Of a stretch of 64,000 nt of DNA, positions 6,999 through 61,432 are shown one piece after another. This stretch comes from Escherichia coli (GTDB taxonomy: Bacteria > Pseudomonadota > Gammaproteobacteria > Enterobacterales > Enterobacteriaceae), in NCBI RefSeq assembly GCF_050320075.1, contig NZ_CP190018.1; one strand, written 5' to 3'. The translations under genes were made by a program, and so were the position numbers. The first letter of the stretch is position 1. Every line of letters begins with the position of its first letter. Below the pieces are notes generated by a model. That model ran no database searches. It saw only the letters and a program-made list of their open reading frames with translations, and was not told where the DNA came from.

Positions 6999-7760
6999 AT
7001 GCCCGATCAAACACAACAATTTTCGTTCAAGGTGCTCACCATCAATATTCACAAAGGCTTTACCGCGTTTAACCGACGCTTCATTTTGCCGGAACTTCGC
7101 GACGCCGTGCGTACCGTCAGCGCCGATATTGTTTGCCTGCAGGAAGTGATGGGCGCGCACGAAGTTCATCCGCTGCATGTGGAAAACTGGCCCGATACCT
7201 CGCACTACGAGTTTCTCGCCGACACTATGTGGAGCGATTTTGCCTACGGTCGCAATGCCGTATACCCGGAAGGGCATCACGGTAACGCCGTACTGTCGCG
7301 CTATCCCATTGAACATTATGAAAACCGCGATGTTTCGGTCGATGGTGCGGAAAAGCGCGGCGTGCTCTACTGCCGCATTGTGCCGCCGATGACCGGAAAA
7401 GCGATTCATGTAATGTGCGTACATTTGGGCCTGCGTGAGGCGCACCGTCAGGCGCAGCTTGCGATGCTCGCCGAATGGGTGAATGAGCTACCGGACGGCG
7501 AACCGGTATTGGTGGCGGGTGATTTCAATGACTGGCGGCAAAAAGCTAATCATCCGTTAAAAGTGCAGGCCGGACTGGATGAGATTTTTACCCGCGCCCA
7601 CGGACGCCCGGCGCGCACGTTTCCGGTGCAATTTCCTCTACTACGACTGGACAGGATCTACGTCAAAAATGCCAGCGCCAGCGCGCCAACCGCGTTGCCG
7701 CTGCGGACATGGCGACACCTTTCTGATCATGCCCCTTTAAGTGCGGAGATTCATTTATGA
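6999..7760 (+). CDS. ybhP: endonuclease/exonuclease/phosphatase-family protein YbhP
   Basis: 253 aa; EEP-fold motifs ([24 protein letters not shown]). Confidence 0.9.
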
Positions 7761-13138: not shown

Positions 13139-14128
13139 TTAGCCGCCAATGTACGATAAGTTTTGCGTAATACCGGTGTTGTTTTGATGCAGGAAATGGG
13201 TCTGTTTCTTCTCCCGCAGCGCCGCTGAAATACGCGCTTCCAGCGCCTGTTGCTGGGTATCGTCTTCCAGCAGATCGCGCAGGTTAACGCCGCCTTCACC
13301 AAACAGGCAGAGATGGAGTTTACCAATGGAGGAAACGCGCAGGCGGTTGCAAGTGGCGCAGAAGTCTTTTTCATACGGCATGATAAGGCCAATCTCTCCG
13401 GCGTAATCCGGATGACAAAAGACTTGCGCGGGACCGTCGCTGCGTTGACGTAATTGGTGGATCCAGCCGCGACGCAGTAGCTCGTCACGCAGAACCTGAC
13501 CAGAGATGTGATGCTTACGGAAGAGCTCGCTGCCCTCACCCGTTTCCATCAATTCGATGAAACGCAGCTGGATAGGGCGATGCTGGATCCAGTTCAGAAA
13601 GGTGTCGAGCTGATGATGATTAACATCACGCATCAGCACGGTATTGACTTTGACCTTTTCAAAACCGGCCTCAAATGCGGCATCGATCCCTGCCATGACC
13701 TGGTTGAATTTATCCTGCCCGGTAATGGCATGAAACTGGTGAGCGTCAAGGCTATCAACGCTGACGTTGATGCCAGTAAGTCCAGCATCGCGCCAGTTCG
13801 CCACATCGCGTTCCAGACGGTAACCATTGGTGGTGACCGCAATCTGGCGGATAGCGTCGTTTTCCCGCACAGCGGCGATGATATCGGTAAAGTCGCGGCG
13901 TAAAGACGGCTCACCACCTGTCAGACGGACTTTTTCGGTGCCAAGACTGGCGAAGGCGCGCGTAACCCGGCGAATTTCATCGACGGTAAGAAAGCCTTTA
14001 TTGGTGACGCCGCTCGGTTTGTAGCCATCCGGCAGGCAGTAGGTGCAACGAAAGTTACACACATCGGTAATCGACAGGCGCAAGTAGTAAAACTTACGCG
14101 CAAATGCATCAGTCAGTTGTGAAGCCAT
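13139..14128 (-). CDS. moaA: GTP 3',8-cyclase MoaA (radical SAM)
   Basis: 329-aa product from [33 protein letters not shown] with the CxxxCxxC radical-SAM motif. Confidence 0.95.
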
Positions 14129-14290
14129 GTACACCTTTCCAGATACGGGAGGCGAAGTCATTTCTTCCTTCGCCCTGGTGGCAATCTTTACGAGCATTGT
14201 CACGGCCAAAGCACCGTATCAGTTGACCCAGGTGCAGAGGCTAGAGTGTTTAGTGGTTAAGCCGATACTAGCGTGTAAATGAGATTTTTA
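14129..14290 (-). promoter_or_regulatory. moaA 5' leader; expected position of the molybdenum-cofactor (Moco) riboswitch and moa promoter
   Basis: Placement from established knowledge of the E. coli moaA leader; secondary structure not verified by me. Confidence 0.4.
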
Positions 14291-55869: not shown

Positions 55870-56570
55870 TATAAGGCTCTCTTACCAGCCGCGCCCTAAC
55901 AGGCGCACACGATCTGACATTTGCATCCAACTTCGTTACTTACGGCCCGTAAACGGGCTGCCCGGATAGGGAATCGATAACTGCTCTCCCATTTTATCCT
56001 CTTCAAGCTGGTGCTTTATGTAGTCCTGTATCTTCGCCGTGTTCTTACCCACCGTATCGACATAGTACCCTCGGCACCAGAACTCCCTGTTTCTGTATTT
56101 GAATTTCAAATCCCCAAACTGCTCGTAAAGCATCAGACTGCTTTTCCCTTTCAGATATCCCATAAAGCCGGATACGCTCATTTTGGGTGGGATTTCCACA
56201 AGCATATGGATATGATCTGCGCAGCACTCTGCTTCCAGAATCCGTACGCTTTTCCACTCACACAGCTTTCTCAAAATACTGCCTATCGCCCTACGCTTCT
56301 CTCCGTAAAACGCCAGTCTTCGGTATTTCGGCGCAAAAACTATGTGATATTTACAGTTCCAGCGGGTGTGCACTAAGCTCTTTTCGTCCCCCATTGGGAC
56401 CCCCTTTTGATTTCTTGTTTGACACTTGCAGTTGCCAGACCGCAAGGTGTTTTAACAAATCAAAAGGGGTTTTAATAACTGGCTCAAAGCTGAAAGCTTT
56501 CCGGAACCCCCAGCCTAGCTGGGGGTTTTCTGTGCACAAAAAAACCAGCCTTTGGGGAGGCTGGCTAAAT
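55870..56570 (-). mobile_element. IS200/IS605-family (IS200-like) insertion sequence; boundaries approximate
   Basis: HuH Y1 transposase gene flanked by subterminal hairpins (gcccgtaaacgggc at 55937-55950; cccccagcctagctggggg at 56508-56527; ccagcctttggggaggctgg at 56546-56565). Confidence 0.75.
55936..56394 (-). CDS. tnpA: IS200-family transposase TnpA (Y1 HuH)
   Basis: 152-aa product from MGDEKSLVHTRWNCKYHIVFAPKYRR with HxH motif (DHIHMLVEIPP) and catalytic Tyr region (RGYYVDTVG). Confidence 0.9.
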   Translation of the reverse strand: MGDEKSLVHTRWNCKYHIVFAPKYRRLAFYGEKRRAIGSILRKLCEWKSVRILEAECCADHIHMLVEIPPKMSVSGFMGYLKGKSSLMLYEQFGDLKFKYRNREFWCRGYYVDTVGKNTAKIQDYIKHQLEEDKMGEQLSIPYPGSPFTGRK

Positions 56571-58532: not shown

Positions 58533-58726
58533 GCTTCACCTCCGCAGAGGTCAAACGTTGGATGCAAAGAATCGCAGGTGCATTTCTGCATCTGTGAAGA
58601 GAGAAGAGAGTTTAGATTGTATGTGCGCATAAACGTCCCCGTTTAGCGCAGAAGTCACCGGAGTTGTTCAGGCTCCAATGGCATGATTATGGCTGGTTGA
58701 TTATTGGAAATCAAATGTGCTGAAAA

Positions 58727-59236
58727 TTAGTCTGCCAAGTCTTCCTCAGTCGCAACTGGGTAATTCCAAATATCAAAAAAAGCTATAGCCTCCTGCCATT
58801 TGCTCCATAAGTTATCAAGTACTTGTGTAGGTTCCGTACTTTTAAAAACAGAATCAGCCGCATCACCGTTATGAACTTCCTCGTACAGTTCCATTATTAG
58901 CAGATTAACAAAGTACTGTTTCAACATTAATGCCTGATTACCTTCTTTCTGCTGGCTATCCTGCTTGATGATCTCCATCGCCCGTACTAGGCACCTGATG
59001 ATATCCGCTGCATCATTAACGCTCCATTCAGATCCGCGCTTATCTTTAGCTGATGAATTGGCTCTCTCAGCGCAAGCCTTTAAAGACTCATAAAGGTAAA
59101 CTCTATTTTGTAGCTGCAGCGCTTTTTTTGACGTGTACCAACTTGCAAGCGCCGACCCCGCTGCGGCTAATGTGCCAAACGCAGAAATACCTGCTGCTAT
59201 TGCACTTAAGTCGGCACTGTCAAAGTTCCACATCAT
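58727..59236 (-). CDS. hypothetical membrane-anchored protein (cargo between ninB and ybcK)
   Basis: 169 aa; N-terminal hydrophobic segment LSAIAAGISAFGTLAAAGSALASWY then soluble helical domain; AT-rich; no family recognised. Confidence 0.55.
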   Translation of the reverse strand: MMWNFDSADLSAIAAGISAFGTLAAAGSALASWYTSKKALQLQNRVYLYESLKACAERANSSAKDKRGSEWSVNDAADIIRCLVRAMEIIKQDSQQKEGNQALMLKQYFVNLLIMELYEEVHNGDAADSVFKSTEPTQVLDNLWSKWQEAIAFFDIWNYPVATEEDLAD

Positions 59237-59905
59237 CGTTACACCTTATATAAATACCCCTCAGTAATATCCAATAAGGTATGTGCACAATCAATATAAT
59301 TTTATCCGTATCGGCACATAGCGATTTGAAGGCTACTGGTAATAGTATATTTTAGATTATATCGTCCAGTTTACAGCACCCGTATTTTATGAAATGGACT
59401 CGCATATTACCCAAAAAATGCCAGCACTTCCGTCATCGTAGAATGCTGGCAGTATTTCTAACTAGTGACTTTATTGGAACAGATTCTGACGGAAATATGG
59501 TAACACTCGACTCCACTTATCATCCAGCCACGGCTGGAATTTTACATGTGCCGTTTATCTGGCGAGGATTGCTCGCGCTCTGTTGAGTATCTGGGGATAT
59601 TCATGCTCGATAGAAGTAAAGCGGCCGGCTTCGCGGTGCTCCGCAACCTGAAGTAGTGGAGTAACGTTCTGGCAGGCAGTTAACATCACATCACCTGCTC
59701 GCCATAACCAAGCACGTGCACAAAGTTTGTTATCAGTGAATTGTTTTGTGATTGGGTATTGTTGAACTGCTAGAACGAGAACGCCAGCATCCATTGGCAG
59801 TCCCTATAGTAAAACCATAGCTCAGGACGCTTCGTTCAGGATAGATAATTTTATTGTACTTACCTAACTTTCTTACTATAGCACGGTTGAAAAAGTGATT
59901 ATTAC

Positions 59906-61432
59906 TCAAAAATAAACCTCACCATCAACCATATATTTGAGAGTACTTATCGCCTGCTGGGCGGATATTATTTTCATTAAAGGATAGTGTTTAAAAACAA
60001 TGCCATTCATAAAATAGATATCACAGGTTTTATTATCTGTATTGATTATGATTTTTTCGAATGTTTTATAGGCAAGTGTACGACATAGCTCTCGCCCATT
60101 TTTACTGGTTAAGTCAATAGCATGAAAATCACCAAGTGAACTCACCGCTTTACTCTTCAAAGTTTTTAATGATACAGAAGCCCTTCGTAATTCCTTATCT
60201 AATACTCTGATTTTTTCTGCTATAGCGGTAACTTCAGGCGCAACAGATAATGCAGCAATTAAATTATTAATTTTCATCTGGAGCTCAATAATTTTCAACT
60301 CTAAAGTTTCATTAGCATCTTTCTTGTTTTCAACTGGTTGGATTTTACTACAATTAAAAAGCAACTCATTAATGATATTATAATCAACCAAATCTCTCTT
60401 TATTGATGGCCTGTCACATCGATGCAGTCTTCTCATCGGACAAACATAATAGCCATGCAAACTTCCAGATACCGCATGAACAATCATGGTATTACCACAA
60501 GCCTCGCACTTCATAACTGTTCGAAGTAGATTTATCAACATAGGATTTTTGCTACTATTGCTAATACCAAAAGGTGCCAACCGAATTTCCTGCACAGCGT
60601 AAAACAAATCATCTGATATGACTCTGGGATAATAGCCAGCGATTTCACTTATTCCTTTACCTCTTGCACGATATGAAGGTACGCATATACCTATCAGAGC
60701 TTTATTCGCTAATAATTTTTCAATTACAGAAGGTCCCCATGCACTTTCTTTTCCTGAGAAATTCTTTACAGCATGATCATTTAAATACTTGGCTATTGCA
60801 TTCAATGAGCGCCTTTCCATCCTGAGTTTAAAAATTAGCTCAATAGTTTTCACCCTGTCGGGGTCTGGAACAAAAGCCGTTCTTTTGTCATCCAATGAGA
60901 GCCATCTCGGACAAGACGCCGTCATAATCGTGCCTGACTCCAGTGCATCCTGCCGTTTTTTCTTCCATGATAATTTAACCCGACTTGACTTTATCTCGCT
61001 TTCTTCATTTGCCCTTTGTGCTATAAGTATGGCTTTTATTAATGAATATGGCTCATTCAATGAGTCAATATTATAGACTGTATTATCGCAAAGAGTTATA
61101 ACATCAATACCGTGATTCAAAATCAATTTCAGACGCTCAATCGCTTCACCGACTTTTTCTCTTGAAAGTCTGTCCAGACTTTCAACTAACAATGTAGTCC
61201 CTGGCAATATATAACCATGTTCTATAGCATCTAAAAATTCCGAAAAAGCTCCTGATTGTGCATGCTTTCCATTGAATGCGCTTAACCCCAAATCTTCATA
61301 CGTTACGGTATCAAGGTAATAATCACTATTTACCTTTAGCCATTCAGTAATAAGCCTTCTCTGGCGGTTTAATGAATCACCAGACATCTGACCTGGTGAT
61401 GAAAATCGCATATATGCTATGGCTTTTTTCAT
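59906..61432 (-). CDS. ybcK: large serine recombinase (YbcK-like)
   Basis: 508 aa; N-terminal resolvase/invertase catalytic domain (MKKAIAYMRFSSPGQ...SLNRQ), central recombinase domain and Cys-rich zinc-ribbon region (CEACGN...CPMRRLHRC). Confidence 0.88.
   Translation of the reverse strand: MKKAIAYMRFSSPGQMSGDSLNRQRRLITEWLKVNSDYYLDTVTYEDLGLSAFNGKHAQSGAFSEFLDAIEHGYILPGTTLLVESLDRLSREKVGEAIERLKLILNHGIDVITLCDNTVYNIDSLNEPYSLIKAILIAQRANEESEIKSSRVKLSWKKKRQDALESGTIMTASCPRWLSLDDKRTAFVPDPDRVKTIELIFKLRMERRSLNAIAKYLNDHAVKNFSGKESAWGPSVIEKLLANKALIGICVPSYRARGKGISEIAGYYPRVISDDLFYAVQEIRLAPFGISNSSKNPMLINLLRTVMKCEACGNTMIVHAVSGSLHGYYVCPMRRLHRCDRPSIKRDLVDYNIINELLFNCSKIQPVENKKDANETLELKIIELQMKINNLIAALSVAPEVTAIAEKIRVLDKELRRASVSLKTLKSKAVSSLGDFHAIDLTSKNGRELCRTLAYKTFEKIIINTDNKTCDIYFMNGIVFKHYPLMKIISAQQAISTLKYMVDGEVYF

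What the first reader, a model, noticed from the sequence alone, without database searches (positions are those of the whole stretch)
58560..59300. Unassigned membrane-anchored 169-aa protein in the variable slot between ninB and the ybcK recombinase
In DLP12 this slot carries unrelated accessory genes (ybcL, ybcM). Here it holds a single AT-rich gene encoding a protein with one N-terminal transmembrane helix and a helical cytoplasmic domain, with no family I recognise. Small membrane-anchored proteins in early-region slots of lambdoid prophages are often superinfection-exclusion or abortive-infection factors.
Basis: inference. Interest (0 to 1): 0.5.

Follow-up and report, generated by a model that had tools for sequence, protein, structure and literature searches.

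The report
Orphan membrane-anchored lambdoid prophage accessory protein
This is a real, conserved prophage gene for a small, probably membrane-anchored protein that matches no characterised family; nothing computable here shows whether it blocks other phages, so it stays an ordinary phage gene of unknown function with a few testable leads.

Summary
The ORF is real: window 58727..59236, minus strand, 169 aa, with a good ribosome-binding site. It is under strong purifying selection (dN/dS about 0.09) and occurs in 180 of 5426 complete E. coli genomes and in two plaque-forming phages. It is RefSeq WP_000990013.1, "hypothetical protein", and a full-length member of PHROG 1779 (unknown function). 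It matches nothing in Pfam, NCBIfam, PADLOC or the PDB. The AlphaFold model finds only its own relatives.

The family is small and was found only in Enterobacterales. Its genes always sit in the delayed-early accessory regions of lambdoid prophages, on the same strand as the early operon and usually just upstream of ninB.

The protein has a short acidic N-tail, then an Ala/Gly/Ser-rich hydrophobic helix whose small residues are almost invariant. A basic stretch follows, then an acidic helical bundle; about half the family ends in an acidic tail, DEDLAD.

Compared with K-12 DLP12, a 1151-bp cassette (a Rha pseudogene remnant plus this gene) replaces ybcL-ybcM.

Best guess, at low confidence: a membrane-tethered, protein-binding accessory factor acting in phage-phage or phage-host conflict. 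Exclusion is plausible but untested. The slot holds proven defence genes in relatives, yet several features point instead to delayed-early lytic expression.

The parts
58727..59236 (-). CDS of the 169-aa protein (WP_000990013.1, UniProt B7LBA2, PHROG 1779)
   Evidence: ORF list and translation; RefSeq annotation; PHROG 1779 at E = 1e-102 over residues 1-169; dN/dS about 0.09
59138..59209 (-). Codons 10-33: Ala/Gly/Ser-rich hydrophobic helix, the putative N-out/C-in membrane anchor. Small residues at positions 18, 19, 21, 22, 24-26, 28, 29 and 32 are nearly invariant across the family.
   Evidence: Hydropathy and residue conservation; modelled as a helix at low pLDDT
58730..58750 (-). Codons 163-169: acidic C-terminal tail TEEDLAD. 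The motif [DE][DEAV]DL.[DS] at or within three residues of the C-terminus occurs in 31 of 59 full-length family members.
   Evidence: Alignments; motif count
59242..59247 (-). Shine-Dalgarno sequence AAGGTG, 5 nt before the ATG
   Evidence: Sequence
59256..59294 (-). Conserved promoter-like motif: -35 TTGATT (59294-59289), 17-bp spacer, -10 GATATT (59271-59266). The -10 element lies inside an inverted repeat, ACCTT..GGGGT here and ACCCTG..CAGGGT in relatives. An RNA hairpin is an alternative reading.
   Evidence: 8 of 12 consensus matches, below the scan tool's threshold. The motif is conserved in 6 lineages whose synonymous sites are saturated. The hairpin folds at -6.3 kcal/mol.
59413..59450 (-). 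Intrinsic terminator after the Rha remnant: 10-bp stem, run of six T, -16.6 kcal/mol. It insulates the gene from upstream transcription unless antiterminated.
   Evidence: Sequence and fold
59471..59794 (-). Rha/P22AR C-terminal domain pseudogene remnant, with an internal stop and its N-terminus lost at the ybcK junction. In intact phages a full Rha gene precedes this gene.
   Evidence: RefSeq annotation; translation; PhiR26_1 and PhiR5_1 gene order; 35 E. coli-type viral loci
58716..59866 (.). The 1151-bp cassette that replaces ybcL-ybcM of K-12 DLP12
   Evidence: blastn break-points against NC_000913.3

Best explanation
The gene encodes a small bitopic inner-membrane protein. It has a roughly 9-residue acidic N-tail on the outside and one transmembrane helix rich in small residues. 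About 135 residues of acidic helical bundle, ending in an acidic tail, lie in the cytoplasm.

It travels as a single-gene accessory cassette in the delayed-early accessory regions of lambdoid prophages of Enterobacterales: the nin region of the pR operon and the ea region of the pL operon.

Shown:
- It is a real gene under selection.
- It has cassette behaviour.
- Its position and strand are conserved.
- It has no detectable catalytic or nucleic-acid-binding family.

Inferred:
- The near-invariant small residues of the helix suggest that it packs against other transmembrane helices, either its own copies or a host membrane protein.
- The acidic cytoplasmic domain and tail suggest that it binds a protein partner at the membrane.

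The most likely role is in conflict at the cell envelope. It could exclude or abort superinfecting phages, as T4 Imm, P22 SieA and HK97 gp15 do without any homology to it. Equally, it could neutralise a host membrane-associated factor during lytic growth.
For: - Real and constrained.
- Carried by phages that plaque on MG1655 and E. coli C, and by 180 of 5426 complete E. coli genomes.
- Cassette with sharp break-points.
- Always on the early-operon strand between the replication genes and ninB/Q, or in the pL accessory region, in about 12 different contexts.
- Topology: acidic N-tail, hydrophobic helix (family median Kyte-Doolittle 1.87), basic juxtamembrane stretch.
- Small residues of the helix are more conserved than a passive anchor would need.
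- Cytoplasmic part is helical in the model (mean pLDDT 77, most of the bundle above 85) and acidic (median net charge -6).
- No enzyme or DNA-binding family detected.
- The slot holds validated defence genes in relatives, PD-Lambda-1 and AbiD.
- A conserved promoter-like motif lies upstream, and strong terminators follow the gene in relatives.
Against: - There is no functional evidence of any kind.
- No match to PADLOC or to exclusion-annotated PHROGs.
- The gene is co-directional with the early operon. It overlaps or abuts upstream early genes in L011, L067 and L007, and sits directly behind a terminator in L016 and in the window. This fits a delayed-early lytic helper as well as a lysogen-expressed exclusion gene.
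- The promoter-like motif scores only 8 of 12.
- The helix of this copy is at the Kyte-Doolittle threshold (1.59), so membrane insertion is not certain.
- The acidic tail is missing from about half the family.
Confidence: 0.35

Rival explanations
1. It is a delayed-early lytic-cycle helper rather than an exclusion gene. Tethered to the membrane, it binds or sequesters a host cytoplasmic or membrane-peripheral protein, such as a protease, a division or replication factor, or a host defence component. It would be expressed only from N-antiterminated pR or pL transcripts.
For: The gene is always on the early-operon strand. It overlaps the upstream gene by 4 nt in L011 and L067, with gaps of 44-60 nt in L016 and L007. 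Terminators lie immediately upstream in the window, L013 and L016, as expected in a nin region read only by antiterminated polymerase. Neighbours are small DNA-metabolism modulators: a theta homologue, DinI, Dam, Ead/Ea22.
Against: A conserved promoter-like motif sits upstream in six lineages. The gene is AT-richer than its flanks and behaves as a cassette, like a moron. No partner gene is conserved.
Confidence: 0.3
2. It is a conditional membrane-permeabilising effector. The weakly hydrophobic, small-residue-rich N-terminal helix would insert or oligomerise only on a trigger, as in SAR domains, pinholins or HeLo/SesA-type executioner domains. The result would be abortive infection or a change in lysis timing.
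For: About 58-74% of the residues in the helix are Ala/Gly/Ser/Thr throughout the family, with near-invariant small positions. UniProt labels a Hafnia homologue 'Fungal N-terminal domain-containing protein'. An inverted repeat around the putative -10 element would allow regulated expression.
Confidence: 0.1
3. It is a replication or repair accessory linked to the phage-encoded theta (HolE/Hot) subunit. In this reading it would tether replisome components to the membrane, by analogy with phi29 p16.7.
For: A theta homologue is directly adjacent in three contexts and two gene orders. The gene lies between the replication genes and the recombination genes.
Against: Only 3 of 80 theta-carrying phage loci have this gene. 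Theta is common in this region, with at least 494 hits, so the adjacency can be explained by a shared insertion position. The cytoplasmic domain is acidic (pI 4.6), unlike a DNA binder. The window prophage has no theta gene next to it.
Confidence: 0.08
4. It is a soluble helical protein. The N-terminal Ala-rich helix would be an oligomerisation or packing helix, not a transmembrane segment.
For: The Kyte-Doolittle score of this copy is at the threshold (1.59), and the uncorrected sum of Hessa-scale free energies is +2.7 kcal/mol. Bulky residues fall every 3-4 positions, as in a coiled coil.
Against: The family median is 1.87. Acidic N-flanks and basic C-flanks are conserved, and no charged residue interrupts about 22 residues.
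Confidence: 0.1

Closest known systems
PHROG 1779 (phage protein family, unknown function)
   Same: Full-length match at E = 1e-102. Every relative tested, down to 28% identity, falls in the same PHROG.
   Different: Nothing differs; this is the family. It carries no function, name or structure.
Single-gene membrane superinfection-exclusion proteins (T4 Imm, P22 SieA, HK97 gp15); these are named from my own knowledge
   Same: A small inner-membrane protein carried by a phage as a non-essential accessory gene in a variable slot. T4 Imm shows that early lytic expression is compatible with exclusion.
   Different: No sequence similarity to any exclusion-annotated PHROG or PADLOC model. The bulk of this protein is cytoplasmic and acidic. 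No phenotype is known.
Pfam DUF4760 (PF15956), an uncharacterised bacterial and viral family of about 150-170 aa
   Same: Similar size and layout: an N-terminal hydrophobic helix followed by a helical bundle. Some family members in AFDB are labelled DUF4760, and unrelated DUF4760 proteins are the nearest non-family Foldseek neighbours (probability 0.96-0.98).
   Different: None of the 21 members in the scanned alignment matches PF15956 at E <= 0.1. This protein and one homologue have no Pfam hit at E <= 10, and a second homologue's only sub-10 hits are SecM and UCH. No precomputed Pfam domain is attached to any of the 67 hit entries from the two profile searches. TM-scores to the outside DUF4760 proteins are only about 0.4.
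Morons of lambdoid phages, in the sense of Juhala/Hendrix (from my own knowledge)
   Same: Inserted between conserved genes, with composition different from the flanks. A promoter-like motif lies upstream, and relatives have a terminator downstream.
   Different: The window copy lacks the downstream terminator. The promoter is unproven. Classic morons sit in late operons and are expressed from the prophage, which is unknown here.
phi29 p16.7, a membrane-anchored organiser of phage DNA replication (from my own knowledge)
   Same: An early phage protein with an N-terminal transmembrane helix and a cytoplasmic helical domain, encoded near replication genes.
   Different: No homology. The cytoplasmic domain here is acidic rather than DNA-binding.

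Membership tests
PHROG 1779 | Significant full-length match to the family profile | tested here: met
   E = 1.2e-102, residues 1-169 against profile positions 1-169. Ten relatives all hit the same PHROG.
Pfam DUF4760 (PF15956) | Match to the Pfam HMM | tested here: not met
   This protein and P0021 have no Pfam hit at E <= 10. P0022's only sub-10 hits are SecM and UCH. None of the 21 alignment members reaches E <= 0.1 for PF15956.
Pfam DUF4760 (PF15956) | Shared fold with bona fide DUF4760 proteins | tested here: inconclusive
   Foldseek probability is 0.96-0.98, but E-values are 0.28-1.1 and TM-scores 0.38-0.42 to DUF4760 proteins outside the family.
Known anti-phage defence proteins (PADLOC-DB 2.0) | Match to any model | tested here: not met
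   No families at E <= 1 for this protein. Relatives give only inconsistent hits at E > 0.002.
Superinfection-exclusion proteins (functional class) | Sequence similarity to a characterised exclusion family | tested here: not met
   PHROG scan at E <= 1 returns only two families of unknown function.
Superinfection-exclusion proteins (functional class) | Expression blocks infection by the same or other phages | not testable with these tools
   Needs plating assays.
Moron (autonomous accessory transcription unit) | Present or absent between conserved flanking genes, with deviant composition | tested here: met
   Break-points at 58715 and 59867 against K-12; 43.9% GC against 51%.
Moron (autonomous accessory transcription unit) | Own promoter | tested here: inconclusive
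   TTGATT-17-GATATT scores 8 of 12 and is not called by the scan tool. The motif is nevertheless conserved in 6 diverged lineages.
Moron (autonomous accessory transcription unit) | Own terminator downstream | tested here: not met
   There is none in the window between the stop codon and the ylcH leader. L057, L059, L060, L061, L007 and L011 do have one.
SAR, holin or HeLo-like membrane-inserting effectors | Fold or sequence similarity, or a lysis-cassette context | tested here: not met
Bitopic inner-membrane protein (N-out/C-in) | Hydrophobic segment of about 20 residues with positive-inside flanks | tested here: met
   Residues 10-33. Kyte-Doolittle score is 1.59 here and 1.87 as the family median. 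The N-tail has net charge -2 and the C-flank +3. This is a prediction only.

The most novel reading that the evidence does not exclude
The family is the first representative of an undescribed class of membrane-tethered phage conflict factors. Its conserved small-residue transmembrane helix would dock onto, or assemble in, the inner membrane. Its acidic cytoplasmic bundle would capture a phage or host protein. The outcome would be a new exclusion, abortive-infection or anti-defence mechanism, carried by 3% of E. coli genomes including the O104:H4 outbreak lineage.
Probability: 0.2. Interest if true: 0.6.

Novelty: new member of a known kind. Interest (0 to 1): 0.3.

Why it matters
If the protein has an exclusion, abortive-infection or anti-defence activity, it would add a small single-gene system with no homology to known ones. 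Such a system would be easy to dissect. It is carried by functional temperate phages that plaque on K-12 and E. coli C, and it is present in pathogenic lineages (55989, O104:H4).

As things stand it is one of very many conserved phage proteins of unknown function. Its value lies in the concrete leads found here:
- a defined cassette;
- a predicted topology;
- unusually conserved small residues in the transmembrane helix;
- an acidic tail;
- a candidate promoter and operator.

Tried and rejected
- Family and defence libraries: Pfam-A (on this protein, on the alignment members and on two homologues individually), NCBIfam and PADLOC gave no usable hit.
- PDB by profile: only chance matches, E >= 0.1.
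- Profile iteration: two further word-index protein searches with profiles, plus a full HMMER scan of 1.84 billion representatives. The family stayed small and confined to Enterobacterales, with no Pfam domain on any member.
- UniProt labels 'DUF4760' and 'Fungal N-terminal domain' on homologues could not be reproduced and are kept only as leads.
- Theta (HolE/Hot) linkage looked promising, with three contexts and two gene orders. It weakened once theta proved common in this region: only 3 of 80 theta loci carry this gene.
- Literature: no paper mentions the accession, the PHROG or the PhiR phages. The accession is absent from the DefensePredictor supplements. DUF4760 appears in one unrelated paper.
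- Rfam found nothing in or around the gene.
- One related-loci run failed because the alignment was too diverse.

Full report
**What is there**

The finding's coordinates contain one substantial ORF: window 58727..59236 on the minus strand, 169 aa, starting at ATG, with AAGGTG 5 nt upstream. The best-matching RefSeq genome annotates the identical sequence as WP_000990013.1, hypothetical protein. There it lies between a P22AR C-terminal-domain pseudogene and a 33-aa ylcH-like ORF that overlaps the start of ybcN/ninB.

The surrounding gene order on the minus strand is P, ren, emrE, ylcJ, ybcK, the Rha remnant, this gene, ylcH, ninB, ninE, ybcO, rusA, ylcG, Q. This is a lambdoid prophage of DLP12 type.

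**Is it a real gene?**

Yes. It matches PHROG 1779 end to end at E = 1e-102. Compared with orthologues of 70-83% protein identity, dN/dS is 0.09, and synonymous sites are saturated in more distant pairs.

It is present and intact in 180 of 5426 complete E. coli genomes, including 55989 and the O104:H4 outbreak strains. Its exact sequence is recorded on at least 1000 contigs. Two sequenced temperate phages carry it, one propagated on MG1655 and one on E. coli C.

**The slot**

Against K-12 DLP12, nucleotide homology covers emrE-ybcK down to window 59867 and resumes at 58715, 12 nt after the stop codon. A 1151-bp cassette therefore replaces the 1813 bp that carry ybcL and ybcM.

The cassette holds more than one gene. 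It also contains the C-terminal remnant of a Rha-type antirepressor (59471-59794, with an internal stop), followed by a strong intrinsic terminator at 59413-59450 (-16.6 kcal/mol, run of six T). In the two phages and in about 20 IMG/VR loci an intact Rha gene precedes this gene. The loci that carry ybcK have the truncated form instead.

**The family**

The family is small.
- A full HMMER scan of 1.84 billion representative proteins found 22 representatives.
- Profile searches of the 5.8-billion-cluster collection returned 42 and 25 entries.
- All named sources are Enterobacterales: Escherichia, Citrobacter, Klebsiella, Enterobacter, Raoultella, Hafnia, Pantoea, Erwinia, Dryocola and Scandinavium.
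- Every source calls it a hypothetical protein, and no member carries a precomputed Pfam domain.

**Genomic context of relatives**

About twelve distinct contexts were examined. In all of them the gene lies on the early-operon strand of a lambdoid prophage. Most often it sits between the replication genes and ninB/Q (L004, L005/6, L009, L013-15, L016/17, L018/19, L057-61, L064-66). Twice it lies in the pL accessory region between the recombination genes and xis-int (L007/8, L067/68). Once it is in a small integrase island (L011).

No neighbour is conserved apart from the frequent ninB. Validated defence genes share the slot:
- PD-Lambda-1 in PhiR26_1, E = 2e-198;
- AbiD directly upstream in L018, E = 8e-55.

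Both lie on the opposite strand from this gene.

**The protein**

- Residues 1-9 are acidic.
- Residues 10-33 form an uninterrupted hydrophobic stretch made mostly of Ala, Gly, Ser and Thr.
- Residues 35-45 are basic. This pattern predicts N-terminus out and C-terminus in.

The best 19-residue Kyte-Doolittle mean is 1.59 in this copy and 1.87 as the median over 61 full-length sequences, the window copy included.

Positions 18, 19, 21, 22, 24-26, 28, 29 and 32 are small in 90-100% of sequences; A29 and S32 are invariant. Bulky residues recur every 3-4 positions. That is more constraint than a passive anchor needs, and it suggests specific helix-helix packing.

The rest of the protein is modelled as a helical bundle (mean pLDDT 77, above 85 for most of residues 45-120). 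It is acidic, with pI 4.6 here and a family median net charge of -6. Thirty-one of 59 full-length members end in an acidic [DE][DEAV]DL.[DS] tail.

**Searches for a known relative**

- Pfam, NCBIfam and PADLOC: nothing.
- PDB by profile: chance-level matches only.
- Foldseek against AFDB50: only family members are significant.
- BFVD: nothing.

Some AFDB family members are labelled DUF4760, and one Hafnia homologue is labelled a fungal N-terminal (SesA-like) domain protein. Neither label could be reproduced with Pfam-A, even at E = 10. I treat both as leads, not memberships.

**Expression signals**

Six lineages share a motif 30-60 nt upstream of the start codon: TTGCTw (TTGATT here), a 17-bp spacer, then GATATT, with an inverted repeat ACCCTG..CAGGGT around the -10 element. 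Synonymous sites between these lineages are saturated, so the motif is under selection. It scores only 8 of 12 against the sigma-70 consensus and could instead be an RNA hairpin.

Other lineages (L013, L016) have a canonical terminator hairpin directly before the gene. Several relatives have a strong terminator just after it, but the window copy does not.

Together with the 4-nt overlaps and short gaps to upstream early genes in L011, L067 and L007, the data fit either of two patterns:
- an autonomous, moron-like transcription unit;
- a gene read only by N-antiterminated polymerase, like the rest of a nin region.

I cannot decide between them.

**The theta lead**

A homologue of the Pol III theta subunit (PF06440) is directly adjacent in three contexts and in two gene orders. 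However, theta is common in this part of lambdoid phages, with at least 494 hits in IMG/VR. Only 3 of the 80 best theta loci carry this gene. Shared insertion position explains the adjacency well enough.

**Interpretation**

The supported picture is a membrane-tethered, non-enzymatic, protein-binding accessory factor that moves as a single-gene cassette.

Exclusion or abortive infection is a reasonable guess from the location and from precedent, but it has no direct support. A delayed-early helper or anti-defence role is about equally likely. A conditional pore-former, a replication tether and a soluble protein are less likely alternatives.

**Verdict**

The gene is already catalogued as a hypothetical protein and as PHROG 1779, so the novelty lies only in what it might turn out to do. 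Interest is modest (0.3).

Noticed in passing
window 58624-58714, minus strand (also K-12 DLP12 L012 about 7284-7370, and phi80 L069 2501-2640): A conserved noncoding leader lies between this gene and ylcH-ninB, with three parts. First, a promoter-like TTGATT-17-CATAAT (58714-58686) whose -35 element sits in an inverted repeat TTGATT..AATCAA. Second, hairpin 1 (58680-58656): its stem sequence differs completely between lineages but always pairs, and its 9-nt loop CCUGAACA(A/C) is constant apart from the last base. All cells are paired, 5 of 6 pairs show double changes, and 0 of 500 shuffles reach this. Third, hairpin 2 (58650-58624) contains the ylcH start codon in its 3' arm. There is no Rfam match. 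In phi80 the record annotates an inverted repeat, 'IR4', within the matching stretch.
   Followed up: partly
L057, L059, L060, L061 (about 35-60 nt after the homologue's stop codon): Close relatives have a strong intrinsic terminator (AGGCCTC-TCCG-GAGGCCT followed by a T run, -16 kcal/mol) between the gene and the ylcH leader. The window copy has lost it or never had it, so its stop codon lies 12 nt from the leader.
   Followed up: partly
L011 7756-8004; L067 6762-7004; L016/L017 7567-7824; L119, L126, L148: Phage-encoded homologues of the DNA polymerase III theta subunit (HolE/Hot) lie directly next to homologues of this gene, in two different gene orders. Theta is frequent in lambdoid phages (at least 494 IMG/VR hits), and only 3 of 80 theta loci carry this gene.
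   Followed up: yes
window 59906-62074, minus strand: The block emrE-ylcJ-ybcK has low GC content (31-41%). It sits between ren and the truncated Rha gene. It looks like a secondary insertion that removed the Rha N-terminus. The ybcK recombinase has no PADLOC match.
   Followed up: partly
L002 2842-4344 (phage PhiR26_1) and L018 5517-6485: The same ren-ninB slot carries a PD-Lambda-1 defence gene (E = 2e-198) in PhiR26_1 and an AbiD gene (E = 8e-55) in an enterobacterial prophage. Both are on the opposite strand. This marks the slot as a cargo and defence hotspot.
   Followed up: yes
L018/L019 8552-10393: A cloacin/pyocin-S-type bacteriocin gene with its immunity gene sits inside the nin region of a lambdoid prophage, three genes downstream of the homologue.
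   Followed up: no
window 56404-56527, minus strand; 55936-56445: An STnc490 Hfq-binding sRNA (Rfam RF01405, 146 bits) lies at the 5' end of an IS200-type tnpA ORF, between the Q antiterminator gene and a lipocalin gene. In the closest genome this IS200 is itself interrupted by an ISCro1 element, which the window lacks.
   Followed up: no
window 14116-14260, minus strand: A molybdenum cofactor riboswitch (RF01055, 103 bits), far from the finding.
   Followed up: no
L057 3962-4000, and proteins P0003 and P0004: The 182-aa versions of the protein in databases start at an upstream in-frame ATG that lies inside the conserved promoter-like motif (ATGGATATTA). The conserved start is the M-x-W position, so the 13-residue extension is probably an annotation artefact.
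   Followed up: partly
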